Below are positions 15,492 through 52,689 of a stretch of 64,000 nt of DNA, piece after piece. The stretch is taken from IMG/VR virus record IMGVR_UViG_3300034072_000758, positions 427,030-491,029 of that record; one strand, written 5' to 3'. The notes below the pieces were generated by a model that made no database searches, was not told the origin of the DNA, and saw only the letters and a list, made by a program, of their open reading frames with translations. The position numbers and the translations under genes were made by a program. The stretch is from a virus. Each line of letters opens with the position of its first letter. Position 1 is the stretch's first letter.

Positions 15492-16319
15492 ATGGCCTTC
15501 TTGAATTTAGATTTACGTCCAGTATCCAAGAAAATCGACTCCTTCGTCAGTTACGTTGATAAGCGTGTTGACGAAATGGATTTATATACTCAGACCATGT
15601 TGTTCTGTGAACTGAGTTGCTTGGCGTACTTCTCTCATAACGAGGTTCAGGATTGGGCCAAAAAATTAAATTTCCTGTCAGTAGTCGCTATCGAGAATGA
15701 TGGTGGGTTGGCATATCTGTTCGAAACGGAAACCGATCTGATCTTGTCGTTCCGTGGGAGTGATAATGCTCAGAATCGTAAAACCAACTTCGACCTCGAT
15801 CTAGTGAAGGATGGAGCTTTAGCCGGTAAAGTTCACCACGGTTTCTTGAAGCTGGCAGACAAGATGATCAACAGCTTTGTAACGCTGCTGGATGCTAATA
15901 ATTGTGAAAAGAAGGTTTGGGTAACAGGACATTCTCTGGGAGGCGCAATAGCTGCGATCATGGCCGTGAAAGCCGAGCGTCGAGTCGGACCTAATGTTGA
16001 TGGTATCGTGACTTTCGGCCAACCTAAGATAGGCAATCATGCCTATATCAAGGGAATTACTACCCCGTATTATCGTTGGGTAAACCACGAAGACATCGTA
16101 TCGAAGCTTCCGATGTGGTTACCTCATTTTGGTTCATTAAAATATCTTAACAACAAAGGTGATCTGAGCATTCAGACTTTTATTTCCACTTTGTTTATAT
16201 TCCCTTCTACCCAATCGATAGAAGATCATGACATCGTGAAATATCGCGCTGTTCTGGAAAAACAAAAGGGGAAGGAACTTAATCCCTCCCCTATGACATT
16301 CTTCAAACTTATTAAGTAA
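15492..16319 (+). CDS. class-3 (fungal-type) lipase / alpha-beta hydrolase
   Basis: GHSLGG nucleophile elbow (VWVTGHSLGGAIAAIMA), 275 aa, with downstream His/Asp candidates. Confidence 0.7.
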   Translation: MAFLNLDLRPVSKKIDSFVSYVDKRVDEMDLYTQTMLFCELSCLAYFSHNEVQDWAKKLNFLSVVAIENDGGLAYLFETETDLILSFRGSDNAQNRKTNFDLDLVKDGALAGKVHHGFLKLADKMINSFVTLLDANNCEKKVWVTGHSLGGAIAAIMAVKAERRVGPNVDGIVTFGQPKIGNHAYIKGITTPYYRWVNHEDIVSKLPMWLPHFGSLKYLNNKGDLSIQTFISTLFIFPSTQSIEDHDIVKYRAVLEKQKGKELNPSPMTFFKLIK

Positions 16320-16982
16320 TTAGAACGAAGCAGTCAGCGACAGGACGGTATGGTCCGGTTCGATTTGGGTGTTGGTGTCATGGTAACGAACGTCAACCGA
16401 CAGGCGGTCATTCAGCTTGTACGAGACACCGATGTTGCCAGTGTTGTAGGACGACTGCTGGAACGATTGTTCTCCGAGCGCGCCCGAAACAGTCAGACGA
16501 TTTGTCAACGGGTACGAAGCATTGACCTCATAGTAGAAAGCCTTGCCAGTCTCACCGAAGAACTGTGGCGAGTAATAAACGGCTGCGCCGACATTGGCCT
16601 TACCAACCGGACGCGAAACGCCAGCCTTGATTTCGCCATAAGCGTAATCGGAACCCTTCGGCTGATCAGGATAGCCGGTGTAAATCACGGCGAAATCGAA
16701 TGTGTATTCCTTGTAGGAAGGGCGGACACCCGCATACAGATTGATTTCAGCATCCGTGCTGTTATTGAAATCCACGTTGGACGCAAAAGCGCCGACATAT
16801 ACAGTGTTGTCGAAGGTGTGTTCGACACGGGCTTGAACAGCTTCATGTTGATCGGTTTGGCTGACACCACGATCCACATAATCCGAGGCGACGGTTACTG
16901 CGTAATTGGTGTCACCAGCCGAAGCCGTTGCCGCCGATACTAAACCGAGAGCGGCGATTGTTGCTGCGATAAGCACTTTCAT
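16320..16982 (-). CDS. outer-membrane beta-barrel protein (OmpA-like/porin-family) with signal peptide
   Basis: Signal peptide MKVLIAATIAALGLVSAATASA. Alternating aromatic/hydrophilic beta-strand pattern. C-terminal ...LTASF. Confidence 0.65.
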   Translation of the reverse strand: MKVLIAATIAALGLVSAATASAGDTNYAVTVASDYVDRGVSQTDQHEAVQARVEHTFDNTVYVGAFASNVDFNNSTDAEINLYAGVRPSYKEYTFDFAVIYTGYPDQPKGSDYAYGEIKAGVSRPVGKANVGAAVYYSPQFFGETGKAFYYEVNASYPLTNRLTVSGALGEQSFQQSSYNTGNIGVSYKLNDRLSVDVRYHDTNTQIEPDHTVLSLTASF

Positions 16983-26400: not shown

Positions 26401-28734
26401 CTCAAACCCGCCGTAGAAACGAACAACACGATCCGCCGCAGCATTCGCCGCGATATTTTCTTTGACGTAAACCGTAATGACCGTGTTCGCGTCATAAGAA
26501 CCATTAAACAGAATTGTATTGCTCGTTATTGTGTAGTTCTTAACGACTTCGTTGTCAGCGAGCACTTCAACGATCTTATTTGTTACGTCATAGTTGAGAG
26601 GAATGGATTGATTGTAAATGAAGCTCTCCTGAAAAACGACAGGAAGGTGGTCAATTCTATCAAAATTCAAACCAATTTTGATAAAGCGCGTTGGGTTCCA
26701 AGATGCGGGAGTATATTCCGCAAGATCGCGGCCAGTTTTATTGTAATTAGCGTACCAAGTTTTCCAAGGTTCGGTTGTCTGAATGATTGTGAGATCACGA
26801 GCATTCTTCATATCCAACATGCGATATGAGTTCGTGGACTCGTCAAAATATGCTGGGAAATCGAAATCCATAACCGACACCGCAGCGTTGTCGATGTCTG
26901 GCGAAACGATACGCGAGAACTCACGAACCTTAACACGATATGGCTTCACTTCGGTGATGTAATCAATGAGGTTTTGTGTGTTGTCGATAGGCTGAACTGG
27001 TACAGCCTTAAGTGGTTCGTTATATCCAATCAAATTTAGGAACGAGGTCTTGAAAGCCCAAGTGACCTGATCTTGGCTCGAATGAATATAGTGAAGCATA
27101 TCGTAGAACATTGTGTTTTGTTCTTCGATAGTCAAAATTTCACTTCTCAGCGTATCAATCAAATACTTCAATTCAATCGAACCATCACGTTGGTTGAATT
27201 GATCAACGTCACCTTCAAACTTGATCAGGTCTTCGTCGTAGAATTTTTCAGAAAGCTCGATTGTACCGGATTGTCTCGCCACAACGATCCACGCGCCGTC
27301 GATGTGTTCACACCATAGCCATTTGCCGTTATCGTCATCCAATACCTTGACGAATTTGTCTTTGTTATTTACGAAAGAAACGTCGCGGTCTCTAATCGTA
27401 TTATAAGTAACAGCAGGGGGATTCAAATATGAGTAACCCTCAGCGTACCAATCTACATAATTGAAGAAATCAACAGTTCTGTAATTCTGATAATTGATCA
27501 GTTCGTATGCTGTAGAATTGTATTCCCATACTGTCCAGAAATTGTGAGTTTCGCTGTTTGCGTTCACTAGAACCTTGTAGCCTTGAGTTGGGTTCGGGAT
27601 AGCATCGCGTTCTTCCAGCGTATCGACCACAATGTCGTAGGTCTTCACCGGAGAGAATACCAGACCCGGATTATTGACCAAGAAGGAGCTTCCATATCCA
27701 GTCAAGGTTACGTTAGCAAAATAGGAGGCGGCTTGGCTATACGCACAATATCCGAAGCGAGAAGGACCATAGAACGGTGAGTTCGATGGAATCTCGTATT
27801 CAAGCGCAGTATTATCGTCCAGAGAGCCATTTTTTTGCGACGTTCGAATCGTGACACGATTACTGGCACGGACCACTTCGATTTGTATTTCGCCCAGAGC
27901 GTTCCATCCACCGCCTTCTGGCAAAATAGTATTATGGCCATTCACGAGAATGGTCTTGGTTGTCCCGGCGTAATACACAAGGCTCCATGCCTCAGATACA
28001 TTGCTCCCTTTGACCGCACGATTTGCGATCAAGCTATGAGGGACGCCATTGACTTCGGCAAAAGCTACCACAAGACCAATAACGTCATCATCCCCGTTGG
28101 TGCTACCTACGGTAACGGTATGCTTGTAGTTCGACAAAGCATTCGGTGAAACGAAACCAATCATGTTGGCGCTGTTCACAGTGGTTTCGAAACGGTTATT
28201 GACGAAATCCCAAGAAAGCGCTTCGTTTCCCGGTGGAATCACACCAGCATTAATGAAATATTGATTTCCGTTAAATCTCCCCCAAGTATTGAAGATTTCG
28301 GATTGTGTAGGCGTCTGAACAACGTCTTCGTCATTGGCATCTTCTGGGATGTTTTCGGTCGATGCTTCCCACACACTCCACTGAGGATCATCGACATTGC
28401 TAACGCCGTCCACAAGAATTTTATATTTGTTTCCCGCGATTATGGAAGAAACAAAATTTGGATCGAGCAACAGATCATTGCGCTCCTGATAACTGTAGAC
28501 CTTGTGATCATAAGTCGTTTCTGGTGGAAGTTGTTCAATATATTTTTTACCTTCGGCGCGTCTCCACACGAGATATTCCGAATAGGGAGTCGTGGCTACC
28601 AAGCTATCAATGTACGAAGACCTTTCGATAACGAAAGCTTCTTTCGCAAATATGTTATTAGCTATTTTAACAAAGGCTTTTCTTGCGACGGTGAAGTCTG
28701 TGATAGAAAATATGCCACGATTCAATTCATTCAT
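23413..28734 (-). CDS. giant virion fiber / host-recognition protein (1773 aa)
   Basis: Uninterrupted 5.3-kb ORF, Asn/Thr/Ser/Gly/Tyr-rich beta-rich composition, adjacent to other fiber genes. Confidence 0.6.
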   Translation of the reverse strand: MNELNRGIFSITDFTVARKAFVKIANNIFAKEAFVIERSSYIDSLVATTPYSEYLVWRRAEGKKYIEQLPPETTYDHKVYSYQERNDLLLDPNFVSSIIAGNKYKILVDGVSNVDDPQWSVWEASTENIPEDANDEDVVQTPTQSEIFNTWGRFNGNQYFINAGVIPPGNEALSWDFVNNRFETTVNSANMIGFVSPNALSNYKHTVTVGSTNGDDDVIGLVVAFAEVNGVPHSLIANRAVKGSNVSEAWSLVYYAGTTKTILVNGHNTILPEGGGWNALGEIQIEVVRASNRVTIRTSQKNGSLDDNTALEYEIPSNSPFYGPSRFGYCAYSQAASYFANVTLTGYGSSFLVNNPGLVFSPVKTYDIVVDTLEERDAIPNPTQGYKVLVNANSETHNFWTVWEYNSTAYELINYQNYRTVDFFNYVDWYAEGYSYLNPPAVTYNTIRDRDVSFVNNKDKFVKVLDDDNGKWLWCEHIDGAWIVVARQSGTIELSEKFYDEDLIKFEGDVDQFNQRDGSIELKYLIDTLRSEILTIEEQNTMFYDMLHYIHSSQDQVTWAFKTSFLNLIGYNEPLKAVPVQPIDNTQNLIDYITEVKPYRVKVREFSRIVSPDIDNAAVSVMDFDFPAYFDESTNSYRMLDMKNARDLTIIQTTEPWKTWYANYNKTGRDLAEYTPASWNPTRFIKIGLNFDRIDHLPVVFQESFIYNQSIPLNYDVTNKIVEVLADNEVVKNYTITSNTILFNGSYDANTVITVYVKENIAANAAADRVVRFYGGFEETNIEKLTGIKDDRIDGGSFTDEKDFTILDQDGDDTINEQDGFQMERNNPEELVAPSVSDTLSIDVFMSGGASMPVQGYHDILSNGTVHLVSYTENADVVVPFADGKRISPSLYSVDHGNKTVVISNTPADTITLRTFSELTAGANVQIEVFNYHANSTYVIGNNSQAPETLFVDVNGLRLNPDEYTVTGSSVVMTAVLSAGDEIQITYLTDPNAAGMATSLVNDENSVVLSLNGPTYTWISVDGVYQDAANPLDIPYPEEQDEAYLFVANAVANSADISSVWSHTPIHLSLDGSTAVFIRFRNDDTTFSFQNVNTGTITYESVANVTIHADSPASSVPHDFYQSITFAVGIPDTNYFVVGGSCVPTGYGSYSPWFILYEVDTVNQVPVRVGGIVYRINDLTGIGPSINCIHLDQDTGSFFVSATTGYSVSRLQLFKLPPIAQWNDQVYVPSATDDTVIANTTQWLNDSYTLVMAGRDDGKGVILPNYANGTMEMRYYYYISKNRVQFAHEEYVSADIANGGTSVTWSNICPHVKNNMFAYPNGWMGYVPFSTPGAECTVDTQFDTIFGSYMANTDLCFDGTVIDTSDNNFTVNVGYTELFTTKKLDADTYRLVMRKEMGGVHNSNIGFAIQADVVTYDTQAAEFTYMSNVAGPTLDTVSWFAGTSSDRYTYGKHGPTVFMDQAGDIFEAFGVNEYNKLHRVVIRIGDYIPPSTDEYIPNIVVTVFDAPLITPESYKLSLTRPAYDLFNPKETGDYDAGGVEEYSFDTGVVGAVENDIPILVAREDSFRLIDMTSSVATLSQPLYLNNSTIYLSVTGDLIPPRVIDVQALDGSITQQDRCGVIWINGERIEFDNITVNGGVTELSGLRRGTHNTSVGNERIFKVSAAGNGSNKSFTMMGVNSMDGLSVAVYEPLVYANGTLITSDGYTGFPVLSAKTFTVDYTVTTTSSGLTVNFKKAPNFGTTVYLIKKFEQSYYDTGTPVYDGLIFISDQNRV

Positions 28735-37709: not shown

Positions 37710-38240
37710 ATGGGTACTCGTCATTTGGTGGTTGTTCGCTTGAACAATGAAGTAAAAGTCGCTCAGTATGGTCAATTCGACGGTTATATGAGCGGGGCTG
37801 GTAGAACAATACAACGTATTTTGTCGTTTGCTGATTTGAATTTGCTAAAAGAGTTAGTAGCAAAATGTTGGTGGATCACAGATGATGAACACAACAAGAT
37901 GATGGCTGATCTTGGTGTCAAAAGTAATGACGGTTGGATTAGCTTGGATGACAGTAAAAAAATTGAAAAAGCTTATCCGCATCTTCATCGCAATTGTAGC
38001 GCCGAAGTCATCACTGAAATTCTCAACAGCGAAAACGGATTACCGCTTCAAAATTCATACGATTTTGGAGAAGATGGACTTTTTTGCGAATACACCTATA
38101 CGGTCGATCTCGACAATGATACATTGACCGCACAAAGCGGGGGTTTGGACGGCAAAGTCCTTTTCCAAGGACCAATCAACACGCTCCACACAATCCCACC
38201 ATTTGAAGACCCCAAAGACGAAGAAGAAGACGAAGAATGA
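37710..38240 (+). CDS. hypothetical protein with acidic C-terminus ([10 protein letters not shown])
   Basis: 176-aa ORF with an ATGA overlap with aspS. Confidence 0.5.
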
Positions 38241-40018
38241 CCAAGACAAACATGCGAACGCAAACCTGTGGTGAATTGACCGTGGCCTATACTGGCGACA
38301 CGGTGAGCCTGTGTGGCTGGATTCACCGCAAGCGAGATCATGGCGGCTTGCTGTTCATCGACTTACGTGACAATTACGGACTGACCCAGATCGTAATGCA
38401 AAAGACCGCTGCCTGTTTCTCGGTGGTGGAGCACCTTCGCCAAGAAAGCGTAATTCGCGTAATCGGTAAGGTCGTAACGAGAACGGAAAATACACAAAAC
38501 CCGAACCTCGCAACCGGGCAGATCGAAGTCATCGCTTCGGAAATTACAGTTCTGTCGGAAGCCTCGGAACTTCCAGTGCCAGTGTTCGGTGATGTTCAGT
38601 ATCCAGAAGACCAACGTTTGAAGCATCGCTATCTCGATCTTCGCCGTGACGAACTCCACTCAAACATCCTGCTGCGCTCCAAGATCATTAGCTACCTGCG
38701 TAGGTTCATGGAGGGCGAAGGCTTTACTGAGTTTCAGACGCCTATTCTGACCGCATCTTCCCCAGAAGGCGCGCGCGACTTCCTCATTCCATCACGCCTT
38801 CATCCCGGCAAATTTTATGCCCTGCCTCAAGCACCACAACAATTCAAGCAACTTTTGATGGTGTCTGGCTTTGACCGCTATTTCCAGATCGCACCTTGCT
38901 TCCGCGACGAAGCCGCCCGTGCTGACCGGTCGCCGGGTGAGTTCTATCAACTCGATATTGAAATGTCTTTCGTCAATCAGGAAGACGTTTTCTCTCAGGC
39001 TGAACGTATCCTTCATTCGACCTTTACTGAGTTCTCGAACGGGAAGACCGTAAGTTCGTACCCATTCCAGCGAATCACCTACAAGGACTCGATGGAAAAA
39101 TACGGCAACGATAAGCCCGATCTTCGTAACCCAATCGTCATGAGCGATGCTTCGCTTTATTTCGTGAACGGCGGCTTCGGTCTGTTTGAGAAAATGGCCA
39201 GCGACGGCAAAAGCTCGATCTGGGCTATTCCGGTCAAGGGCAATGGAAACATCAATCGCAAATTCTGCGACAAGATGAACTCTTGGGCCATCGAAGAAGG
39301 CCAAAAAGGTATGGGATATATCTATTGGAACGAAGAAGGCGCACAAGGCCCAATCGCCAAGAATCTCCATGCCGATAAGCTGGGACAATTGGAAGCCGCC
39401 TATGAATTGGGTAACGGTGATGCCATATTCTTCGTGGCCGGGATCAAAAAGGATTTCCTCAAGTTCTGCGGATTCGCCCGCACCAAGATCGCCGAAGAAC
39501 TCGGTCTGATCAAGGATGATCATTTCCATTTCTGCTGGGTGGTGGATTTCCCAATGTTCGAACTATCGAACGAAGGCAAAATCGATTTCGCCCACAATCC
39601 GTTCTCTATGCCACAAGGCGAAATGGAAGCTCTGGAAACCAAGAACCCGCTGGATATTCTGGCCTATCAGTACGACATCGTGTGTAACGGCATCGAACTG
39701 TCCTCCGGGGCTATTCGTAACCACCGACCCGACATCATGCTCAAGGCTTTTGAAATCGCTGGTTACAAGGCCGAGGAAGTGGAAGAACGCTTCGGCGGTA
39801 TGTTGAACGCATTCCGCTATGGCGCGCCTCCCCACGGTGGTCTGGCTCCCGGTGTTGACCGCATGGTCATGATGCTGGCTAATAAATCCTCCATCCGAGA
39901 CATCATCGCTTTCCCGCTGAATCAGCAAGGACAAGATTTGATGATGAACGCACCATCGGAAGTCACGGATAAACAACTCAAAGAGTTGAACATCCGAACA
40001 TACAAGCCATTGAGCTAA
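38237..40018 (+). CDS. aspS: aspartyl-tRNA synthetase (class II, bacterial-type)
   Basis: N-terminal OB anticodon-binding fold. Class II motif 2 (FRDE...R...F.Q.D.E) and motif 3 ([14 protein letters not shown]). 593 aa. Confidence 0.85.
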
Positions 40019-40449: not shown

Positions 40450-41676
40450 TTACAGCCACACTTTCCCATATGCTGATTGAAGAATAGACGGGATGAACAC
40501 TTTACCACCTTCGTCCTGATAGTTTTCCAGAACAGCCAACAAAGTTCTACCAACCGCCAGTCCAGACCCATTTAAGGTGTGGACTGGTTCTTTTTTGCCT
40601 TGAGCATTGGTGAAGCGAGTCTTCATGCGATTGGCTTGGAAATCGCCACAATTGGATACCGAGCTAATCTCACGATAAGTTTTCTGTGATGGCACCCAAA
40701 CTTCGATGTCGTAAGTCTTTTGTGCTCCGAAGCCCATGTCACCCGCGCATAATAACATGATGCGATATTTTATACCCAATGAAGTGAGGATGTTTTCAGC
40801 ACAAGATAACATGAACTCGTGCTCTTGTGCCGACTTCTCAGGCGTAGTGATCGACACCATTTCAACTTTGTTAAATTGATGCTGGCGTAAGATGCCATGC
40901 GTGTCCTTACCAGCGCTTCCGGCTTCGGATCGGAAACATGGGGTCAGCGCAGTTAGACGAAGGGGTAATTCACCCTCAGCCAAAATCTTATCAGCGACAT
41001 AATTTGTCAAAGTCACTTCGGCGGTCGGGATCAGAAAATGTTCATCAGTGTTCACCGAGTACAGGTCATCGATGAATTTAGGAAGCTGACCAGTTCCATA
41101 CAAGGCCGTGTCTTTCACCAGCAACGGAGTGGAGCATTCCTCGAATCCATTTTTAACCTGACATTCAAGCATATACTGCCCGATAACTCGTTCGAGACGT
41201 GCCACGGGGCCGCGCATGAATGAGAAGCGTGTGCCAGACATCGCTACCCCCGCTGATATATCGAGGCCGTATTTGCTCCCGATCTCAACATGGTCTTTCG
41301 GGTCTTTTATGGAACGGAGCGGAATATCATTGACACGAACCAATTGATTGTCGTGCTCGTCTTTTCCAACCGGAACGTCATTGGCTGGGACATTTGGGAT
41401 GTCGAACAAATAGTCTTCAAGTTCCCCGGCCAGATAATCGACCAAGCCTTCGGCAGTAGTTATTTCGGCCTTCACCGCCACCCCGGTTTCATGGTCTTTA
41501 TTCCGCGCGGCATCCTTGCGCTTGGCGTACAAAGCCTCAAGATCAGTCAACGATTTACGATGATCTGTATCCTTTTTGAGAATGTCCGAAACTATCCGAG
41601 ACCCGTCAAGCCCTCTCTTATTCAACCCGCTGGCAACGGCTTCTGGATTCTCGCGGATGGTCTTTATATTGATCAT
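40450..41676 (-). CDS. serS: seryl-tRNA synthetase (class II)
   Basis: N-terminal coiled-coil tRNA-binding arm. Motif 2 (FRSEAGSAGKDTHGILRQHQFNKVE). Motif 3 (GSGLAVGRTLLAVLENYQ). 408 aa. Confidence 0.85.
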   Translation of the reverse strand: MINIKTIRENPEAVASGLNKRGLDGSRIVSDILKKDTDHRKSLTDLEALYAKRKDAARNKDHETGVAVKAEITTAEGLVDYLAGELEDYLFDIPNVPANDVPVGKDEHDNQLVRVNDIPLRSIKDPKDHVEIGSKYGLDISAGVAMSGTRFSFMRGPVARLERVIGQYMLECQVKNGFEECSTPLLVKDTALYGTGQLPKFIDDLYSVNTDEHFLIPTAEVTLTNYVADKILAEGELPLRLTALTPCFRSEAGSAGKDTHGILRQHQFNKVEMVSITTPEKSAQEHEFMLSCAENILTSLGIKYRIMLLCAGDMGFGAQKTYDIEVWVPSQKTYREISSVSNCGDFQANRMKTRFTNAQGKKEPVHTLNGSGLAVGRTLLAVLENYQDEGGKVFIPSILQSAYGKVWL

Positions 41677-44602: not shown

Positions 44603-44904
44603 TGGACAAGACACAAGTTGCGCTGGGGATCGTGCGCGAGGCTCATTCGCTGTCTCCCGAAGAGTTCCAAAATCGCTATCCGCCGAAGACTGATCGGATG
44701 TATGATCCGAACGACCCCTTCTACATGACTTCGACGGATTATTTGAACCAATATAATCCCAACCGTCTCCATTGTGCGGATGGCGGCGCTTGTCACCACG
44801 CTTGCGCTTCGAACGAGGCCGGGGCCTGTTTCCGACGTGATACTTGCGGGCCGCTCAGTAATAGTGGCTGGGAAATGAAAGACGGAAAGTGGGTACAAGA
44901 ATGA
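44602..44904 (+). CDS. small Cys-rich protein (CADGGACHHACASNEAGACFRRDTC)
   Basis: 100-aa ORF with an ATGA overlap. Cys cluster. Confidence 0.45.
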   Translation: MDKTQVALGIVREAHSLSPEEFQNRYPPKTDRMYDPNDPFYMTSTDYLNQYNPNRLHCADGGACHHACASNEAGACFRRDTCGPLSNSGWEMKDGKWVQE

Positions 44905-45905
44905 CCATCGTTCATAAACTTCAAGAGCACGGACTAATCAGTCCGCCGAAATGGTTGCCGGATAACCTCGCGTATCTGGTCATCATGGGATCGATGGCTT
45001 ACGGCGTCAATACGGACACGTCCGATATGGATGTGTATGGCTTTGCTGTGCCTCCCAAGGAGATCGTATTTCCACACCTGACCGGCTATATCCCCGGCTT
45101 TGGTAACCACCCGGAAAAGTTCGATCAGTGGTCCGAGCATCACATCAGACAGAACCAGAAGGAATACGACTTCTCGGTCTATTCCATCGTGCGATATTTC
45201 GATCTGTGTAGGGAAAACAACCCCAACATGATTGATAGCCTTTTCGTGCCGGACAACTGCGTGATGTTCCAATCCAAAGTCGGTGAGATCGTCCGCGAGA
45301 ACAAACACGCCTTCCTTCACAAGGGGGCTTTCCACAAATACAAAGGCTATGCTTACGCGCAAATCGGGCGTTACAAGTCTCTGTCCCCGGAGAGCAAGCT
45401 TGGCTCCATCCGTATCAAGATGGGTGAAGAAGGTTTGGAGTTCGATGCCTTCAAAGAAAAGGTGGATAGTGGGGAGCTTGTTCTATCAGCTTCGATGAAG
45501 CGTGATTTCGACGGCCTGAACGAACGCCAAATCAACACCATCAAGGAAGGTGTGGATCGCAAGGCTATGTATCACGTGGTTCGTTTGATGAACGAGCTTG
45601 AGCAAATCCTGACAACAGGGACGCTTGATCTCCAAATCAATCGGGAACAGCTTAAGTCTATTCGTCGTGGCGAGTGGACACCTGAGCAAATCTTTGAATA
45701 CTTCGAGCGCAAGGAAGCCGAACTCGACGGCATCCAATTGACCTCGAACGTGCTTCCACATGGCCCTAACATGAAACAGCTTCACAGCATTCTGGTAAGC
45801 TGTCTGGAAGAGGTTTATGGGTCTCTGGACAACATGATCTCCCAGAATAAAGATGATCGATTACTGGTCGAATTGAAAGGTCTCGTGAAAAAGTTCGACG
45901 TATAG
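44889..45905 (+). CDS. Pol-beta-superfamily nucleotidyltransferase-domain protein (cGAS/DncV/MNT/OAS-type GS...DxD fold)
   Basis: N-terminal signature GSMAYGVNTDTSDMDVYGF (G[GS]-x9-13-[DE]h[DE]h). Helical C-terminal domain. 338 aa. Confidence 0.5.
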   Translation: MGTRMTIVHKLQEHGLISPPKWLPDNLAYLVIMGSMAYGVNTDTSDMDVYGFAVPPKEIVFPHLTGYIPGFGNHPEKFDQWSEHHIRQNQKEYDFSVYSIVRYFDLCRENNPNMIDSLFVPDNCVMFQSKVGEIVRENKHAFLHKGAFHKYKGYAYAQIGRYKSLSPESKLGSIRIKMGEEGLEFDAFKEKVDSGELVLSASMKRDFDGLNERQINTIKEGVDRKAMYHVVRLMNELEQILTTGTLDLQINREQLKSIRRGEWTPEQIFEYFERKEAELDGIQLTSNVLPHGPNMKQLHSILVSCLEEVYGSLDNMISQNKDDRLLVELKGLVKKFDV

Positions 45906-48877: not shown

Positions 48878-49346
48878 GTCCCTCCGCTATTGGGTCGTGT
48901 GAACATTCTAGGTAAGTAACACGTTCTCATACAGGCTCGCGGTTAAGTCTATGGGTGATCTGAGTGGCCTAAGATGTATGTGGTTCGATTCCACTATGGG
49001 ATACCAATTCGCTCAAATGAGCAAACGAATTGTTGTTTAAAGGGTGTATGGAGGCACGTTCTGTCCGAGTGGGGACAGAAAGGCGGGGGTTCGAATCCCC
49101 GTTGTCCGAATCAGGTGGTGTTTTCGAGGGAGACCTTGGAAATGTGGGTTCGAGTCCCACAGAGACAGAACAACAGACCAACGGCGAGAGTTGCGTATCT
49201 ATAAGTTCAGGCCCGAAAGGGATAGAGTGAAGCTGAGGATGCCGCGAAGGAAGTAAGCGCGGATTCGATGACGCTGAAACGAATATTACACCCTGACGCT
49301 CTCAATGATTAGGCCCTCGGACATACCATCCGAGGGCCTTTTTTAT
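48878..49346 (+). ncRNA. promoter-to-terminator non-coding transcription unit containing three tRNA T-arm/acceptor-like hairpins (GTGG-TTCGATT-CCAC...GGGATACCA; CGGGGG-TTCGAAT-CCCCG; GTGGG-TTCGAGT-CCCAC) that do not form canonical cloverleaves
   Basis: No ORF with a start/RBS. T-loop consensus three times on the plus strand. One hairpin can form an acceptor/T minihelix (GGACAG...CGGGGGTTCGAATCCCCG-TTGTCC). Strong terminator at 49311-49346. Confidence 0.4.
49311..49346 (+). terminator. rho-independent terminator (AGGCCCTCGG-loop-CCGAGGGCCT + TTTTTT)
   Basis: Seen directly. Confidence 0.7.
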
Positions 49347-50075: not shown

Positions 50076-50357
50076 TCAGCCATGACGATATAATGCGTCA
50101 GACAACCAACCATCCCAATCATCGAATGGAGGAATGTTGTTGAGATCGACCACGAAGTAACGCATCAGGGCATTATCGACTGTGGCTTGCGCTCTGGCCT
50201 TCCAAACAGCTTTCGCTTCCTCGGAAGATGGATAGATACCTACCAAGTCGATTTTAGAAACATCTTTGAATTGGAGAGAATCGACGGAGACCAACTCTCC
50301 CCCAATCACCAAATACAACCACTGTCTTGTGTGAAAGCTGTCGGTTTCGTTGGTCAT
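50076..50357 (-). CDS. hypothetical protein
   Basis: ORF 50076..50414 trimmed to the first Met outside tRNA-Trp. Confidence 0.45.
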   Translation of the reverse strand: MTNETDSFHTRQWLYLVIGGELVSVDSLQFKDVSKIDLVGIYPSSEEAKAVWKARAQATVDNALMRYFVVDLNNIPPFDDWDGWLSDALYRHG

Positions 50358-50383
50358 ATTCCAGTCCTTGTGATCAAAGTATT

Positions 50384-50460
50384 TTGGCAGGGGTGGAGAG
50401 ATTCGAACTCCCATCGCGCAGTTTTGGAGACTGCCGCTCTAACCGTTGGAGCTACACCCC
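50384..50460 (-). tRNA. tRNA-Trp (anticodon CCA), CCA encoded
   Basis: Minus strand: acceptor AGGGGTG/CACCCCT, D-arm GCTC-CAACGGTTA-GAGC, anticodon stem GCAGT/ACTGC with loop CTCCAAA, T-arm GGGAG-TTCGAAT-CTCTC. Confidence 0.75.
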
Positions 50461-50473
50461 TATAGGCGATCAA

Positions 50474-50752
50474 TCACTTGACCGCAAAGGAAGAAATGAG
50501 CTTACAACTCGTTTTTACAAACCCTACATAACGAGGGTCCGAGAAACGGTCGAAGTCATTCAAATAATCGAAGTCCGCCTTGTCGATTTCATACACATGA
50601 TATTCGACGGCTGGTGAATGCTGTTCTACAACCGTAAAACTACGGTCGCTTCTCAAGCCACGTTCTTTATCTGCGATCTTCACAGCTTCAATCGGCCTTA
50701 AGTTATTCGTCAAGGCGACGATATGATTTTGATTCAAAACAGCGGTACGCAT
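50474..50752 (-). CDS. hypothetical protein
   Basis: 92-aa ORF between tRNAs. Confidence 0.45.
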   Translation of the reverse strand: MRTAVLNQNHIVALTNNLRPIEAVKIADKERGLRSDRSFTVVEQHSPAVEYHVYEIDKADFDYLNDFDRFSDPRYVGFVKTSCKLISSFAVK

Positions 50753-50812
50753 ACTATTACTCCTTACCCGACATTAATAATTTATTTACATTATCAAAGT
50801 CAATTTTATTTT

Positions 50813-50903
50813 TGGAGGACGTGGTGGGACTCGAACCCACGGTGGTCTATGTTACGACAACAGGTTAAGAGCCTGTCCCTCTCGCCGCTGAGGTGACACG
50901 TCC
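50813..50903 (-). tRNA. atypical type-II (long variable arm) tRNA with lysine anticodon CUU; chimeric derivative of the canonical tRNA-Lys(CUU) at 51517-51593
   Basis: 5' GGACGTG-TCA-CCTC-AGCGGCGA-GAGG-G-ACAGG-CTCTTAA-CCTGT-[TGTCGTAACATAGACCACC]-GTGGG-TTCGAGT-CCCAC-CACGTCC-T-CCA. Acceptor stem, T-arm and anticodon loop are identical to the canonical Lys(CUU). It adds a Ser/Tyr-like D-arm and a 19-nt variable arm. Confidence 0.55.
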
Positions 50904-50997
50904 GTATCAAAAATGTAGGGAGATCGGGTTCACCACAATCATGCTGGTACACAAGGTCGTCACATGATTAGTAACCCACTAGGGCATGGCTCCAGCT

Positions 50998-51074
50998 TGG
51001 TGAACACGGTGGGGGTCGAACCCACGACCTACTGATTAAAAGTCAGTTGCTCTACCTACTGAGCTACGTGTTCG
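50998..51074 (-). tRNA. tRNA-Lys (anticodon UUU), canonical, CCA encoded
   Basis: GAACACG-TA-GCTC-AGTAGGTA-GAGC-A-ACTGA-CTTTTAA-TCAGT-AGGTC-GTGGG-TTCGACC-CCCAC-CGTGTTC-A-CCA. Confidence 0.75.
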
Positions 51075-51154
51075 TGCGCCCTGTCGGACTCGAACCGACA
51101 CTCGTTAGAAGCAGATTTTAAGTCTGCCGGGTCTACCAATTTCCCCAAGGGCGC
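51075..51154 (-). tRNA. tRNA-Leu (anticodon UAA), type II
   Basis: Acceptor GCGCCCT/AGGGCGC, Leu-type D-arm, anticodon stem GCAGA/TCTGC with loop CTTAAAA, 13-nt variable arm, T-arm GTCGG-TTCGAGT-CCGAC. Confidence 0.7.
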
Positions 51155-51204
51155 TTAGGTACTTTTCTTGTAAACATCAAAGATGATTTTGGCAACATCT
51201 TTGT

Positions 51205-51280
51205 TGGCGAGGATAGAAGGATTCGAACCTCCGACACATGCGTTCGAAGCGCATTGCTCTGTCCACTGAGCTATATCCCC
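51205..51280 (-). tRNA. tRNA-Arg (anticodon UCG), CCA encoded
   Basis: GGGGATA-TA-GCTC-AGTGGACA-GAGC-A-ATGCG-CTTCGAA-CGCAT-GTGTC-GGAGG-TTCGAAT-CCTTC-TATCCTC-G-CCA. Confidence 0.7.
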
Positions 51281-51281
51281 G

Positions 51282-51366
51282 TGCGCCGAGAGGGATTCGA
51301 ACCCTCATACCATTACGGTGTCCGTTTTTGAAACGGGTGCGTCTACCAAAGTTCCGCCACCAGCGC
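51282..51366 (-). tRNA. tRNA-Leu (anticodon CAA), type II
   Basis: Acceptor GCGCTGG/TCGGCGC (two G-U pairs), D-arm GCG-GAACTTTGGTAGA-CGC, anticodon loop TTCAAAA, T-arm GAGGG-TTCGAAT-CCCTC. Confidence 0.65.
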
Positions 51367-51417
51367 ATAGAAAACCTTTAATATAGATCGTTATCCACAT
51401 CCATATTAAAGGTTATG

Positions 51418-51501
51418 AGGATGTAGAGGGACTCGAACCCCCGATGGTCTTTTGACAACGGATTAAAAGCCCGTCCCTCTCGCCGCTGAGGTGATACATC
51501 C
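51418..51501 (-). tRNA. atypical type-II (long variable arm) tRNA with lysine anticodon UUU
   Basis: 5' GGATGTA-TCA-CCTC-AGCGGCGA-GAGG-G-ACGGG-CTTTTAA-TCCGT-[TGTCAAAAGACCATC]-GGGGG-TTCGAGT-CCCTC-TACATCC-T. The 22-nt D-region TCACCTCAGCGGCGAGAGGGAC is identical to the other atypical tRNA. Confidence 0.55.
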
Positions 51502-51516
51502 ATAGTAGTATTTGTT

Positions 51517-51593
51517 TGGAGGACGTGGTGGGACTCGAACCCACAACATTCGGTTTAAGAGACCGACGCTCTAACCATTGTAGCTACACGTCC
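51517..51593 (-). tRNA. tRNA-Lys (anticodon CUU), canonical, CCA encoded
   Basis: GGACGTG-TA-GCTA-CAATGGTTA-GAGC-G-TCGGT-CTCTTAA-ACCGA-ATGTT-GTGGG-TTCGAGT-CCCAC-CACGTCC-T-CCA. Confidence 0.75.
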
Positions 51594-51610
51594 GTATCAA
51601 ACAAATACTG

Positions 51611-51683
51611 CGCGGATCAAGGGACTCGAACCCATAACCCTCTGTTTAGAAGACAGATGCTCGTCCAATTGAGCTTCATCCGC
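51611..51683 (-). tRNA. tRNA-Arg (anticodon UCU)
   Basis: Acceptor GCGGATG/GATCCGC (one mismatch), anticodon stem TCTGT/ACAGA with loop CTTCTAA, T-loop TTCGAGT. Stems are slightly imperfect. Confidence 0.55.
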
Positions 51684-51692
51684 ATAGTAGTG

Positions 51693-51778
51693 TGTGCCGA
51701 GGGGGACTCGAACCCCCACGCCCATTACAGGCCCCGGTTTCTGAAACCGGGAAGTCTACCAAATTTCATCATCAGCAC
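51693..51778 (-). tRNA. tRNA-Leu (anticodon CAG), type II
   Basis: Acceptor GTGCTGA/TCGGCAC, anticodon stem CCGGT/ACCGG with loop TTCAGAA, long variable arm, T-arm GGGGG-TTCGAGT-CCCCC. Confidence 0.65.
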
Positions 51779-51803
51779 GTATGCTCTTTCGAGCAAAGTC
51801 TTG

Positions 51804-51883
51804 TACGGGTGAGAGGACTCGAACCTCCACGATTGCTCGCTAGAACCTAAACCTAGTGCGTCTACCAGTTTCGCCACACCCGC
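51804..51883 (-). tRNA. tRNA-Leu (anticodon UAG), type II
   Basis: Acceptor GCGGGTG/CACCCGT, D-arm GCG-AAACTGGTAGA-CGC, anticodon stem CTAGG/TCTAG with loop TTTAGGT, T-arm GGAGG-TTCGAGT-CCTCT. Confidence 0.65.
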
Positions 51884-51884
51884 G

Positions 51885-51957
51885 CACTGCCAGTAGGACT
51901 CGAACCTACAACCTTCTGATTCGTAATCAGATGCTCATCCAGTTGAGCTATGGCAGC
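51885..51957 (-). tRNA. tRNA-Arg (anticodon ACG), copy 1
   Basis: GCTGCCA-TA-GCTC-AACTGGAT-GAGC-A-TCTGA-TTACGAA-TCAGA-AGGTT-GTAGG-TTCGAGT-CCTAC-TGGCAGT-G. Confidence 0.7.
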
Positions 51958-52081
51958 ATAAAGCAACAAGACGGTGGGGTTCGAACCCACAACCTTTCGG
52001 CTCCGACTTTGACCGCAACGGCTTTTCGCAAACCATTACGTGCGTGTGTATACCCATTCCACCACGCCAAGTTACTTCAAG
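51958..52081 (-). other. unassigned 124-nt spacer inside the tRNA array containing a T-arm-like palindrome GTGGGGTTCGAACCCAC but no foldable acceptor/anticodon arms
   Basis: Could not be folded into a cloverleaf on either strand. All other spacers in the array are 0-15 nt. Confidence 0.3.
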
Positions 52082-52166
52082 TGTCCATGAAAGGATTCGA
52101 ACCTTCACGCCCATTACAGGCAACAGCCTCTCAAGCTGCCGTGGCTACCAATTACACCACACGGAC
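52082..52166 (-). tRNA. tRNA-Leu (anticodon GAG), type II
   Basis: Acceptor GTCCGTG/CATGGAC, D-arm GTG-TAATTGGTAGC-CAC, anticodon stem GCAGC/GCTGT with loop TTGAGAG, T-arm GAAGG-TTCGAAT-CCTTT. Confidence 0.65.
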
Positions 52167-52175
52167 ATACGCAAG

Positions 52176-52292
52176 TGCGTTCGGGAGGATTCGAACCTCC
52201 AACCTCTATACTCGTTTGATCGTCATCCGACCAGTATAGCGGTATCCAACCCTCTAATGGGCTGGCGTGGCTACCAATTTCACCACGAGCGC
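52176..52292 (-). tRNA. atypical 117-nt Leu-like type-II tRNA with a non-canonical anticodon region (CCAGCCC-ATTAGA-GGGTTGG) and an oversized variable region; possible pseudogene, suppressor-like or insert-containing tRNA
   Basis: Acceptor GCGCTCG/CGAACGC (one C-A mismatch), Leu-type D-arm TG-GTG-AAATTGGTAGC-CAC, T-arm GGAGG-TTCGAAT-CCTCC. The middle section has a 7-bp stem, a 6-nt loop and a second 7-bp hairpin CTATACT...AGTATAG. Confidence 0.4.
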
Positions 52293-52302
52293 ATATTACG
52301 AG

Positions 52303-52377
52303 CGGGACTGGCAGGATTCGAACCTGCGACCTTCGGTTTCGTAGACCGGCGCTCTTATTCCGCTGAGCTACAGTCCC
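52303..52377 (-). tRNA. tRNA-Arg (anticodon ACG), copy 2 (different body)
   Basis: GGGACTG-TA-GCTC-AGCGGAATAA-GAGC-G-CCGGT-CTACGAA-ACCGA-AGGTC-GCAGG-TTCGAAT-CCTGC-CAGTCCC-G. Confidence 0.6.
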
Positions 52378-52440: not shown

Positions 52441-52689
52441 GGGTTCGATCTTAACCGTTATGTTGTCTGCCTATTTCATCCGATGAAACGCAGACATGCG
52501 CGATTAAACCGTACCCCCTTTCGGGCGGCGGAGCCACTTTCTTAACAGTTTAAGGCGCAGAGCGAACATAACGAAAAATTCCTGTGATTTTGGGGCGAAA
52601 CCCCGTGTGGATTTCACCCTATCATTTCTATTTATCATCGGTCAACAAAAAAAGTTATTTTCCGATGAATTTTTTTGAACAAAGAAAAA

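What the first reader, a model, noticed from the sequence alone, without database searches (positions are those of the whole stretch)
52176..52292. A 117-nt Leu-like tRNA with an aberrant anticodon region
- Acceptor, D-arm (TG-GTG-AAATTGGTAGC-CAC) and T-arm are those of the phage's tRNA-Leu family.
- The middle of the molecule instead carries a 7-bp stem with a 6-nt loop (CCAGCCC-ATTAGA-GGGTTGG) plus a second 7-bp hairpin (CTATACT...AGTATAG).
- That is about 30 nt more than any of the five canonical Leu tRNAs, which are all present: UAA, CAA, CAG, UAG and GAG.
- The loop contains UUA/UAG triplets, so a nonsense-suppressor-like or insert-containing tRNA is conceivable. A pseudogene is the conservative reading.
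Basis: seen in the sequence. Interest (0 to 1): 0.6.

Follow-up and report, generated by a model that had tools for sequence, protein, structure and literature searches.

The report
Oversized leucine-tRNA-like gene, jumbo phage
A 117-base gene inside a giant phage's tRNA cluster folds like a leucine tRNA, but its anticodon hairpin is sealed and it carries a huge extra arm, so it is most likely a tRNA-shaped RNA (or a decaying gene copy) and not a stop-codon suppressor.

Summary
Window 52176-52292 (minus strand) is a 117-nt cloverleaf. It has a Leu-type D-arm, a canonical T-arm, discriminator A73, a 7-bp/6-nt anticodon hairpin and a 42-nt variable arm. ARAGORN skips it; the Rfam tRNA model scores it 34.8 bits (threshold 29).

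It lies in phase in a Leu/Arg/Lys tRNA array of a ~517-kb T4-like megaphage that encodes CysRS, AspRS and SerRS.

The suppressor idea fails:
- The loop reads A-U33-UAG-A, a tRNA-Leu(UAG) remnant, not a stop-reading anticodon.
- A 7-nt loop cannot form.
- The window shows no recoding or in-frame stops.

The extra ~30 nt is a hairpin at the tip of the variable arm, not an anticodon-loop intron.

No orthologue exists in any collection searched, so conservation of this element cannot be tested.

Oversized Leu-type tRNA-like genes are nevertheless common and enriched in viral contigs: 85 distinct ones in about 150 loci, against chance level in cellular genomes. One such family shows compensatory changes.

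Best reading (0.45): a processed, probably leucylatable, non-decoding tRNA-like RNA. The main rival is a young pseudogene (0.33). This is a new variant of the poorly understood "oversized phage tRNA" kind.

The parts
52176..52292 (-). Whole 117-nt tRNA-Leu-like element (X1)
   Evidence: RNAfold cloverleaf, z = -4.9. Rfam tRNA 34.8 bits at exactly these ends. Coordinates checked.
52286..52292 (-). Acceptor stem, 5' strand GCGCUCG
   Evidence: Pairs with 52177-52183 (CGAACGC). 6 of 7 pairs, with a C4.A69 mismatch.
52267..52283 (-). D-arm GUG-AAAUUGGUAGC-CAC (Leu type: 3-bp stem, G18G19, A14, A21)
   Evidence: X1 nt 7-32, which include this arm, are 92% identical over 26 nt to tRNA-Leu(GAG). Alignment A2.
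52246..52265 (-). Anticodon-arm equivalent: 7-bp stem CCAGCCC/GGGUUGG closing the 6-nt loop AUUAGA (52253-52258). The loop holds A32-U33-UAG-A37, a Leu(UAG)-type remnant.
   Evidence: Pair probabilities are at least 0.99 for all 7 pairs. The 8-nt loop costs +3.9 kcal/mol and the 10-nt loop +8.2.
52202..52243 (-). Giant variable arm (42 nt): basal stem ACC/GGU, as in Leu(CAA), extended by CUAUACU/AGUAUAG plus GU/AC plus GAU/AUC
   Evidence: MFE structure. The V region alone folds at -18.1 kcal/mol. The insert has no other copy in the window or in the fetched loci.
52184..52200 (-). T-arm GGAGG-UUCGAAU-CCUCC
   Evidence: Perfect 5-bp T-arm found by the pattern scan. Expected 0.05 per shuffled window.
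52176..52183 (-). Acceptor 3' strand CGAACGC plus discriminator A73. No encoded CCA.
   Evidence: Sequence. The five Leu tRNAs of the array also lack an encoded CCA.
52293..52301 (-). 9-nt 5' leader UCGUAAUAU, ending in the UAY motif that most tRNAs of this array have before +1
   Evidence: Spacer table. 11 of about 15 leaders in the array end in UAU or UAC.
50385..52377 (-). The tRNA array that holds X1. In transcription order: Arg, X1, Leu, X2, Arg, Leu, Leu, Arg, Lys, Lys, Leu, Arg, Leu, Lys, Lys, a 92-aa ORF, Trp.
   Evidence: ARAGORN and Rfam. Terminator-like hairpins upstream at 52446-52414 and 52716-52687.

Best explanation
X1 is a diverged paralogue of the phage's class-II tRNA-Leu genes. 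Its anticodon loop is a UAG-type remnant. It has kept everything a tRNA needs to be made and handled, and has lost the ability to present a normal anticodon.

Shown:
- It sits in phase in the polycistronic tRNA array, with the same short UAY-ending leader as its neighbours.
- It has a 7-bp acceptor stem, U8, a Leu-type D-arm with G18G19, a canonical T-arm and A73.
- Its two expansions are fully base-paired and sit at the two places where an L-shaped tRNA tolerates extra RNA. One is 2 extra C-G pairs that shut the anticodon loop down to 6 nt. The other is a ~30-nt hairpin stacked on the tip of the variable arm.

Inferred:
- It is cut out by RNase P and 3' processing, and receives CCA.
- It folds into an L with two long protruding helices.
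- Bacterial LeuRS can still bind it and probably charge it, because LeuRS reads A73 and the D-arm/core, not the anticodon or the variable arm.
- It does not decode efficiently. It therefore acts as a tRNA-shaped RNA outside ordinary translation.
- The likeliest role is as a cleavage-resistant mimic, decoy or spare. This would be within the phage's duplicated Leu/Arg/Lys tRNA set, directed against host tRNA-targeting defence nucleases.

It is not a nonsense suppressor and not an intron-containing tRNA.
For: Structure and integrity:
- Clean cloverleaf, z = -4.9.
- Rfam tRNA score above the gathering threshold.
- All invariant positions are intact and the D-arm is 92% identical to Leu(GAG).
- Phasing and leader motif match the other tRNAs.
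- Relative to the Leu paralogues, the acceptor, T and anticodon stems differ by paired changes. Examples are G6-C67 to C6-G67 and T-stem GAGGG/CCCUC to GGAGG/CCUCC, read.

Anticodon arm:
- The closed form is strongly favoured.
- The loop AUUAGA(G) matches the Leu loop pattern N-U-NAG-A-G of Leu(GAG).

Context in the same array:
- Variable-arm expansion is a trait of apparently functional tRNAs here. Lys(CUU) of 91 nt and Lys(UUU) of 85 nt are called by ARAGORN and Rfam and have normal anticodon loops.
- A second tRNA-like element, X2, has an 11-bp hairpin with a pentaloop in place of the anticodon arm.
- There is no codon demand for a second UAG decoder. CUA is 4.5% of Leu codons.

Analogues elsewhere:
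- 85 distinct oversized (102-132 nt) Leu-type tRNA-like genes with 6-7 of 7 acceptor pairs were found in about 150 IMG/VR loci. In GTDB cellular genomes 16 of 121 pattern hits passed the same filter, which is chance level.
- None of those whose loci were scanned is called by ARAGORN. Three reach the Rfam tRNA threshold.
- One 104-nt family shows compensatory changes in the acceptor, anticodon stem, inner hairpin, loop-loop contact and T stem.
- L069 has the same architecture: a 5-6 bp stem, a 4-6 nt loop and a 58-nt paired variable arm.

Literature:
- Phage tRNAs as counter-defence against anticodon nucleases: PMC10264068.
- Oversized megaphage tRNAs with 'enigmatic introns': PMC6784885.
Against: - No orthologue was found in any collection, so there is no covariation or conservation evidence for X1 itself. 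The only second copy is identical and comes from the same phage.
- There are no expression, processing or charging data.
- The C4.A69 mismatch, the non-7-nt loop and the insert are three departures from a working tRNA, which is what a young pseudogene looks like.
- All pairs of the variable-arm insert are Watson-Crick, so it could be a palindromic DNA insertion and not a selected RNA helix.
- The analogous phage elements share no insert sequence with X1. Most of them have no anticodon hairpin at all, so they argue by analogy only.
- The decoy role is pure inference. No tRNA-targeting nuclease or partner protein was identified.
- The window also holds several orphan T-arm fragments, which suggests tRNA gene turnover.
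Confidence: 0.45

Rival explanations
1. Young pseudogene. A duplicated tRNA-Leu gene was disabled by a 3-nt change in the anticodon arm, a palindromic ~30-nt insertion in the variable loop and an acceptor mismatch. It is still transcribed as part of the array but has no function.
For: - ARAGORN rejects it at default settings, and Rfam cannot align the anticodon arm.
- It has a C4.A69 mismatch.
- All five Leu anticodons are already covered, and CUA is rare.
- A more degenerate neighbour, X2, has two U.U mismatches in its acceptor.
- Orphan T-arm fragments elsewhere in the window point to birth-and-death turnover of tRNA genes.
- A 517-kb genome is under weak pressure to delete junk.
- The insert helix is all Watson-Crick, which is compatible with a DNA palindrome.
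Against: - Every invariant or semi-invariant tRNA position is intact, and no stem is disrupted apart from one C.A.
- Both insertions fall exactly where the L-shape tolerates them, and they extend existing helices coaxially.
- Phasing and leader are intact.
- Expanded variable arms occur in apparently functional Lys tRNAs of the same array.
- Oversized Leu-type elements in other phages are under structural selection and are phage-enriched.
Confidence: 0.33
2. Unusual but working decoder. It would be a tRNA-Leu(UAG) whose anticodon helix breathes to an 8-nt loop (CAUUAGAG) on the ribosome. It would read CUA/CUG, or act as a sufJ-like +1 frameshift tRNA at CUA-N. The altered loop geometry might make it resistant to an anticodon nuclease.
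For: - U33-UAG-A37 is preserved in the loop.
- Leu identity elements are intact.
- 8-nt loops with an extra base 5' of U33 do decode quadruplets in known suppressors (PMC4238358, listed; otherwise my own knowledge).
- 6-bp anticodon stems are tolerated in tRNA-Sec, tRNA-Pyl and mt-tRNA-Ser(UCN) (PMC7609411).
- Phage tRNAs are proposed to escape anticodon nucleases through loop changes (PMC10264068).
Against: - Opening one C-G pair costs 3.9 kcal/mol, and the closing pair would be a Watson-Crick pair at 32-38, which working tRNAs avoid (own knowledge).
- The review of non-canonical tRNAs read lists no cytosolic tRNA with a 6-nt loop or a 7-bp anticodon stem.
- A 42-nt variable arm (about 15 bp) is far beyond any tRNA known to work on the ribosome.
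- There is no codon demand, and no frameshifted gene was seen in the window.
Confidence: 0.12
3. Intron-containing tRNA. A short intervening sequence would be removed to give an ~87-94 nt tRNA, for example ARAGORN's relaxed model tRNA(UUA) with a 24-nt intron.
For: - ARAGORN with intron search at a lowered threshold outputs a 94-nt 'tRNA-Stop(tta)' with a 24-nt intron after position 37.
- Megaphage tRNAs with unexplained 'introns' have been reported (PMC6784885).
- An RNA-repair-type nucleotidyltransferase (RlaP) is encoded nearby at 44889-45905.
Against: - The model needs A33, a G.A mismatch in the anticodon stem and destruction of two perfect helices. It appears only below ARAGORN's default threshold.
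- There is no bulge-helix-bulge motif and no Rfam group I intron hit.
- The phage is T4-like with bacterial-type genes, and no short-intron splicing pathway is known in bacteria (own knowledge).
- The extra RNA is in the variable arm, not the anticodon loop.
Confidence: 0.04
4. Nonsense (ochre/amber) suppressor tRNA serving recoded late genes.
For: - The letters UUA and UAG occur in the loop.
- Some huge phages recode stop codons and carry suppressor tRNAs (PMC6784885).
- Only 64 kb of about 517 kb could be inspected.
Against: - UAG in an anticodon loop reads Leu codons, not stops.
- UUA is preceded by A, not U33, and no 7-nt loop can form.
- Long conserved genes (RNR, AspRS, CysRS, SerRS, NadE, a 1773-aa ORF) are intact under code 11.
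- TAA, TGA and TAG all end ORFs. Treating any of the three stops as sense does not lengthen ORFs on average (mean stop-to-stop length falls in each case), although the longest ORF grows slightly for TGA and TAA.
- The single in-frame ORF pair is the shadow of a real opposite-strand gene.
Confidence: 0.03

Closest known systems
Oversized tRNAs with 'enigmatic introns' in Lak megaphages (Devoto et al. 2019, PMC6784885)
   Same: - tRNA genes of a >500-kb phage that are larger than expected.
- Standard bacterial tRNA finders miss them.
- They carry inserts with no known removal mechanism.
   Different: - Lak inserts were modelled as anticodon-loop introns, with eukaryote settings. X1's main insert is in the variable arm, and its anticodon loop is shortened, not interrupted.
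- Lak phages are recoded (TAG). This window is not.
Canonical bacterial/phage class-II tRNA-Leu
   Same: - 7/5 acceptor/T architecture.
- 3-bp D-stem with the AAUUGGUAG loop.
- A73 and a long variable arm.
- Position inside a tRNA operon.
- U33-UAG-A37 in the loop.
   Different: - Anticodon stem of 7 bp instead of 5, and loop of 6 nt instead of 7.
- Variable arm of 42 nt, against roughly 10-15 nt in the five Leu paralogues (read).
- One C.A mismatch in the acceptor stem.
Phage T4 stable RNAs 'species 1 and 2' (rnaC, rnaD) encoded in the T4 tRNA cluster (own knowledge; not retrieved)
   Same: - RNAs of about 120-140 nt of unknown function.
- Co-transcribed and processed with the tRNAs of a T4-type phage.
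- Partly tRNA-like.
   Different: - No sequence relationship was tested.
- The T4 RNAs are not close copies of a specific tRNA isotype.
tRNA-like small RNAs that are handled like tRNAs but do not decode: Bacillus cereus tRNA-Other (mentioned in PMC5389517), bacterial YrlA Y-RNAs (PMC4201824, listed), and engineered 'tRNA scaffold' RNAs (PMC3753655, listed)
   Same: - A tRNA shell (acceptor, D and T elements) gives processing, stability and protein recognition.
- The anticodon region is replaced or disabled.
   Different: - YrlA is circularly permuted relative to a tRNA and binds Ro. Its Rfam model (RF02553) gave no match on X1, and only one weak sub-threshold match elsewhere in the array.
- tRNA-Other is class I and chromosomal.
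- Scaffold RNAs are synthetic.
tRNA-Sec, allo-tRNAs and selC* tRNAs (PMC5389517, PMC7609411)
   Same: - Long variable arm and lengthened anticodon stem.
- Found in phage and alphaproteobacterial tRNA clusters.
- Some were proposed to be regulatory ncRNAs.
   Different: - They have 8/5, 8/4 or 9/3 acceptor/T branches and 7-nt loops. X1 is 7/5 with a 6-nt loop.
+1 frameshift suppressor tRNAs with 8-nt anticodon loops (sufJ, SufB2; PMC4238358, PMC7803779; listed)
   Same: X1's alternative 6-bp/8-nt form, C-A-U33-UAG-A-G, has an extra base 5' of U33, as in sufJ.
   Different: - In X1 that form is 3.9 kcal/mol less stable than the closed 6-nt loop.
- No frameshift site is known.

Membership tests
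Canonical tRNA (Rfam RF00005 / ARAGORN definition) | Covariance-model score above the curated threshold | tested here: met
   34.8 bits against a gathering score of 29, full model 1-71. It was missed by the filtered whole-window scan.
Canonical tRNA (Rfam RF00005 / ARAGORN definition) | 5-bp anticodon stem with a 7-nt loop, U33 and a purine at 37 | tested here: not met
   7 bp plus a 6-nt loop. Only even loop sizes are possible, and pair probabilities are at least 0.99. ARAGORN gives no call at default settings.
Canonical tRNA (Rfam RF00005 / ARAGORN definition) | 7-bp acceptor, U8, G18G19, and a T-loop UUCRANY with G53-C61 | tested here: met
   All are present. One C4.A69 mismatch.
Bacterial tRNA-Leu identity | A73 discriminator, Leu-type D-arm/core and a class-II variable arm. 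The anticodon is not required (established knowledge for E. coli LeuRS). | tested here: met
   A73, and X1 nt 7-32 (spanning the D-arm) are 92% identical over 26 nt to Leu(GAG). Actual charging cannot be tested with these tools.
Nonsense suppressor tRNA | Anticodon CUA, UUA or UCA at positions 34-36 of a 7-nt loop after U33 | tested here: not met
   UUA follows A, not U. UAG is a Leu anticodon. No 7-nt loop can form.
Nonsense suppressor tRNA | A genome with in-frame stops or a reassigned stop codon | tested here: not met
   Code-11 ORFs are intact, all three stops are used, and there are no true in-frame stops in 64 kb. The rest of the ~517-kb genome was not available.
Intron-containing tRNA (group I or bulge-helix-bulge) | A group I intron fold or a BHB motif at the anticodon loop | tested here: not met
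   No Rfam intron hit was found. The insert is ~30 nt and lies in the variable arm. The anticodon hairpin has no bulges.
tRNA-Sec / allo-tRNA | Acceptor/T branch of 8/5, 9/4, 8/4 or 9/3 | tested here: not met
   7/5.
tmRNA / YrlA / other curated tRNA-like ncRNAs | Match to the family covariance model | tested here: not met
   Nothing but tRNA was found at E up to 10 across 4227 Rfam families. ARAGORN's default run reports no tmRNA in the window, and only a spurious permuted-tmRNA call appeared at a lowered threshold.
tRNA pseudogene | Truncation, disrupted stems or loss of invariant nucleotides | tested here: inconclusive
   There is no truncation, and the invariants and stems are intact. However, the anticodon loop is non-functional in form and there is one acceptor mismatch. 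No relatives were available to measure constraint.
Oversized Leu-type tRNA-like genes of phages (operational class defined here) | Leu-type D-arm and canonical T-arm 55-85 nt apart, at least 6 of 7 acceptor pairs, length over 100 nt, not called by ARAGORN | tested here: met
   X1 passes the same filter as 84 other distinct IMG/VR elements. The class is enriched in viral over cellular collections. Homology of the inserts was not found.

The most novel reading that the evidence does not exclude
X1 is one member of a widespread, phage-specific and so far undescribed class of 'tRNA-shell' RNAs.
- They have Leu-type acceptor, D and T modules, which guarantee RNase P/Z processing, CCA addition, stability and perhaps leucylation.
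- These modules are wrapped around a non-decoding, lineage-specific cargo: a sealed anticodon hairpin, a giant variable arm or a pseudoknotted insert.
- Such RNAs would act on tRNA-binding proteins, for example as decoys or inhibitors of host tRNA-targeting defence nucleases, and not on codons.
Probability: 0.3. Interest if true: 0.75.

Novelty: new variant of a known kind. Interest (0 to 1): 0.5.

Why it matters
Phage tRNA genes are now seen as weapons in a conflict over the host tRNA pool (anticodon nucleases, PARIS, Schlafen-like tRNases).

If X1 is a maintained RNA, a megaphage would be investing in a tRNA-shaped molecule that cannot decode. That would extend the known counter-defence repertoire from "resistant tRNAs" to "tRNA mimics".

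The side result may matter more. Dozens of oversized Leu-type tRNA-like genes are invisible to ARAGORN, strongly enriched in viral contigs, and in one family supported by covariation. Standard annotation may therefore be systematically missing a class of phage RNAs.

If X1 is only a pseudogene, it is an ordinary by-product of tRNA-array turnover.

Tried and rejected
Search for orthologues, to test covariation. All came up empty.
- megablast and blastn against INPHARED phages.
- Exact anticodon-hairpin and variable-arm patterns in IMG/VR and GTDB genomes.
- The neighbouring HNH protein in IMG/VR.
- UvsX in IMG/VR and JGI metagenomes. The best hit was 58% identical and had no syntenic tRNA array.
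- The neighbouring 251-aa protein in 5.8 billion proteins. Only itself and a 40% hit were found.
- UvsX in the same database. The best hit was 67%, and three large contigs were fetched without an orthologous array.

Other ideas tested and dropped.
- Insert as a repeated or mobile element: no other copy in the window or in 1.7 Mb of fetched loci.
- Known ncRNA families for X1, X2, the 48.9-49.3 kb region and the IMG/VR analogues: only tRNA hits.
- Intron models: ARAGORN -i gives nothing at default settings and an implausible model when relaxed.
- 'Closing anticodon stem around an intron' for the IMG/VR set: no enrichment over shuffles.
- Retention of a Leu anticodon-loop motif in that set: no enrichment, 32 observed against 31 expected.
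- Recoding or in-frame stops: none.
- Sigma-70 promoter scan: at background level.
- Literature searches for a described class of phage tRNA-scaffold RNAs or giant-variable-arm tRNAs found nothing specific.
Full report
**What is there**

On the minus strand, window 52292 to 52176 reads:

GCGCUCG-UG-GUG-AAAUUGGUAGC-CAC-G-CCAGCCC-AUUAGA-GGGUUGG-AU-[ACC G CUAUACU G GU CG GAU GACG AUC AA AC G AGUAUAG A GGU]-U-GGAGG-UUCGAAU-CCUCC-CGAACGC-A.

- RNAfold gives exactly this cloverleaf as the minimum-energy and centroid structure. The energy is -49.5 kcal/mol, z = -4.9, and none of 200 dinucleotide shuffles is as stable.
- ARAGORN tRNAs in the window and skips this one.
- The Rfam tRNA model matches it end to end at 34.8 bits, against a gathering score of 29. 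It leaves the anticodon arm unaligned and treats about 60 nt as insertions.
- The D-arm is 24 of 26 nt identical to the neighbouring tRNA-Leu(GAG).
- Aligned with the five Leu tRNAs, X1 has about 32 extra nt in the variable arm, and its anticodon arm is 20 nt where theirs are 17.

**Context**

The window comes from a T4-like megaphage.
- It carries gp32, UvsX and UvsY, ribonucleotide reductase, glutamine-dependent NAD synthetase, and cysteinyl-, aspartyl- and seryl-tRNA synthetases.
- The closest UvsX proteins are 54-67% identical. They belong to Agrobacterium phage Atu_ph07, Sinorhizobium phage Phosso and uncultured 450-600 kb contigs.
- The same phage is on a 516,805-bp JGI contig and on a Logan contig with identical sequence.

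X1 lies in a tight minus-strand array. The order is Arg, X1, Leu, X2, Arg, Leu, Leu, Arg, Lys, Lys, Leu, Arg, Leu, Lys, Lys, then Trp.
- X1 has 9-nt spacers on both sides.
- Its leader ends in UAU. Eleven of about fifteen leaders in the array end in UAU or UAC.
- Like the five Leu tRNAs, it encodes no CCA.
- Two terminator-like hairpins separate the array from the upstream HNH endonuclease gene.

**The anticodon arm**

- The hairpin is 20 nt, so only 6-, 8- or 10-nt loops are possible.
- The 7-bp/6-nt form is favoured by 3.9 kcal/mol over the 8-nt loop and by 8.2 kcal/mol over the 10-nt loop. All seven pairs have probability of at least 0.99.
- Read against the paralogues, for example the Leu(GAG) loop UUGAGAG, the X1 loop AUUAGA(G) is A32-U33-UAG-A37-(G38). 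That is a tRNA-Leu(UAG)-type loop whose flanks have become two extra C-G pairs.
- UAG as an anticodon reads CUA/CUG, not a stop codon.
- The alternative UUA is preceded by A. ARAGORN produces it only with intron search at a lowered threshold. That model has a 24-nt 'intron', a G.A mismatch in the stem, and breaks both perfect helices.

**Suppression and recoding**

- Under the standard code the large conserved genes are uninterrupted.
- TAA, TGA and TAG all terminate long ORFs (26, 12 and 6 of them), and reassigning any stop does not raise the mean ORF length.
- Of the same-frame ORF pairs separated by one stop, the one tested with Pfam and PHROGs (15492-16319 and 16350-16943) is the antisense shadow of a real Gcw_chp/porin-like gene at 16320-16982. 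Most of the others overlap larger opposite-strand ORFs.
- CUA is the rarest Leu codon, at 4.5% of Leu. A canonical tRNA-Leu(UAG) already exists at 51803-51883.
- The suppressor reading is therefore not supported for this window. The other ~450 kb could not be examined.

**Is it a relic or a maintained RNA?**

I could not find an orthologue anywhere. The searches covered INPHARED, IMG/VR, JGI metagenomes, GTDB genomes and the 5.8-billion-protein collection used to look for close relatives of the phage. The decisive covariation test is therefore unavailable.

Indirect evidence for a maintained RNA:
- All invariant tRNA positions, the tertiary-pair nucleotides, the phasing and the leader motif are intact.
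- Both expansions are fully paired. They sit at the two sites where an L-shaped tRNA tolerates extra RNA.
- Stems differ from those of the paralogues by paired changes.
- Two Lys tRNAs of the same array, of 91 and 85 nt, have class-II-like expanded variable arms and normal anticodon loops. Both programs call them, so arm expansion is a habit of this phage's working tRNAs.
- A second uncalled element, X2 (51958-52080), has an 11-bp hairpin with a pentaloop where the anticodon arm should be.

Evidence for a relic:
- X1 departs from a working tRNA in three ways: the C4.A69 mismatch, the non-7-nt loop and the insert.
- The insert helix is all Watson-Crick, so it is compatible with a DNA palindrome.
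- X2 has a degenerate acceptor.
- Several orphan T-arm fragments elsewhere in the window suggest gene turnover.

**Related sequences elsewhere**

I scanned IMG/VR for a Leu-type D-arm and a T-loop separated by 55-85 nt. I then required at least 6 of 7 acceptor pairs.
- This gave 85 distinct elements of 102-132 nt from about 150 loci.
- The same pattern and filter on GTDB cellular genomes passed 16 of 121 matches. That is roughly the ~10% expected by chance, and several of the 16 are archaeal intron-bearing tRNAs or two adjacent tRNAs.
- In the 18 loci scanned, ARAGORN calls none of the oversized elements.
- Rfam scores the three tested elements at 35-40 bits as tRNA and nothing else.
- Most of the 85 have no anticodon hairpin and no stem closing the middle.
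- One locus holds five elements with identical AGUCAGG...CCUGACUA shells and unrelated middles within 5 kb.
- A 104-nt family (L108, L074, L080 types) keeps a CUUAGAU/CAUAGAU loop next to a 20-nt insert. It shows compensatory changes in the acceptor, anticodon stem, inner hairpin, a loop-loop contact and the T stem.
- L069 repeats X1's architecture: a short sealed loop and a 58-nt paired variable arm.
- None of these shares insert sequence with X1.

These results show that oversized, non-canonical Leu-type tRNA-like genes are a real, phage-enriched phenomenon, and in at least one family a selected one. They support X1 by analogy, not by homology.

The only published parallel I found is the 'enigmatic introns' in Lak megaphage tRNAs (PMC6784885). 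Reviews of non-canonical tRNAs list 6-bp anticodon stems and long variable arms. They list nothing like 7 bp plus 6 nt plus 42 nt (PMC7609411 and PMC5389517).

**Verdict**

| Reading | Confidence |
|---|---|
| Processed, probably leucylatable, non-decoding tRNA-like RNA derived from tRNA-Leu(UAG). Plausibly part of the phage's structurally diversified Leu/Arg/Lys set aimed at host tRNA-targeting defences (compare PMC10264068). | 0.45 |
| Young pseudogene | 0.33 |
| Odd decoder or +1 frameshifter | 0.12 |
| Spliced tRNA | 0.04 |
| Nonsense suppressor | 0.03 |

The anatomy, the context, the absence of recoding and the existence of analogues are shown. Processing, charging and the decoy role are inferred.

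Noticed in passing
window 51958-52080 (minus strand): A second uncalled tRNA-like element (X2) lies between tRNA-Leu(GAG) and tRNA-Arg(ACG).
- It has a Leu-type D-arm and a perfect T-arm.
- An 11-bp hairpin with a GCGAA pentaloop replaces the anticodon arm.
- The acceptor has two U.U mismatches and is extended by 8 more base pairs (including G.U pairs) formed by the flanks.
- The T-arm and 3' end resemble tRNA-Lys(UUU).
- ARAGORN calls it 'tRNA-Ile(aat) with a 14-nt intron' only at a relaxed threshold. Rfam gives no hit.
   Followed up: partly
window 50813-50903 and 51417-51501 (minus strand): There are two tRNA-Lys genes (CUU, 91 nt; UUU, 85 nt) with class-II-like long variable arms and an unusual D-arm (CCUC-AGCGGCGA-GAGG, with 3 nt between acceptor and D stem).
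- They sit beside normal-size Lys(CUU) and Lys(UUU) genes.
- The long CUU copy shares its acceptor and T-arm exactly with the normal one.
- Lys tRNAs with long variable arms are not canonical.
   Followed up: partly
window 48983-49161 (+), with a terminator-like hairpin at 49311-49345; window 4868-4957 (+): Orphan T-arm-like hairpins (GGTTCGAnTCC with 4-5 bp stems) lie outside any called tRNA.
- Three are in an intergenic stretch that ends in an intrinsic-terminator-like hairpin.
- Two are just upstream of tRNA-Ala, and one of them ends in CCA.
- There is no Rfam family match.
- They could be tRNA fragments or further tRNA-like RNAs.
   Followed up: partly
IMG/VR loci L055-L172 (for example L067 1-4957, L108 6696-6799, L069, L082 4578-4694, L076 4432-4538): 85 distinct oversized (102-132 nt) Leu-type tRNA-like genes have perfect or near-perfect acceptor stems and highly variable 55-85 nt middles.
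- ARAGORN misses them.
- They are enriched in viral contigs over cellular genomes.
- L067 holds five copies with identical shells (AGUCAGG...CCUGACUA) and unrelated middles.
- A 104-nt family has a covarying pseudoknot between an anticodon-loop insert and the variable-arm loop.
- I found no description of this class.
   Followed up: partly
L016 12340-12471 (identical in L003, L005, L025): This AT-rich phage tRNA array has an element with the same 20-nt D-arm as X1.
- It also has a 6-nt 'anticodon' loop, a 62-nt variable region, an acceptor with two mismatches and an 8-bp flank-formed extension.
- Rfam tRNA scores it 19.6 bits.
- The array also has unusually long tRNA-Cys (86 nt) and tRNA-Val (87 nt).
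   Followed up: partly
window 7882-9255 (-), 38237-40018 (+), 40450-41676 (-), 44889-45905 (+): The phage encodes cysteinyl-, aspartyl- and seryl-tRNA synthetases and an RlaP-type nucleotidyltransferase of the RNA-repair pathway. SerRS recognises long variable arms, which may be relevant to the expanded-arm tRNAs here.
   Followed up: no
window 52447-52686 (minus strand): About 240 nt lie between two terminator-like hairpins (52716-52687 and 52446-52414). The stretch is just upstream of the tRNA array and has no minus-strand ORF of 50 aa or more. It may be a small RNA or a leader.
   Followed up: no
window 16320-16982 (-), 50076-50414 (-), 23413-28734 (-): Host-like genes are present: a Gcw_chp/porin-type outer-membrane beta-barrel and a DUF4170 protein embedded at the edge of the tRNA array. 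Together with the nearest relatives (Atu_ph07, Phosso), they point to a Gram-negative, probably alphaproteobacterial host. A 1773-aa ORF has no Pfam match.
   Followed up: no
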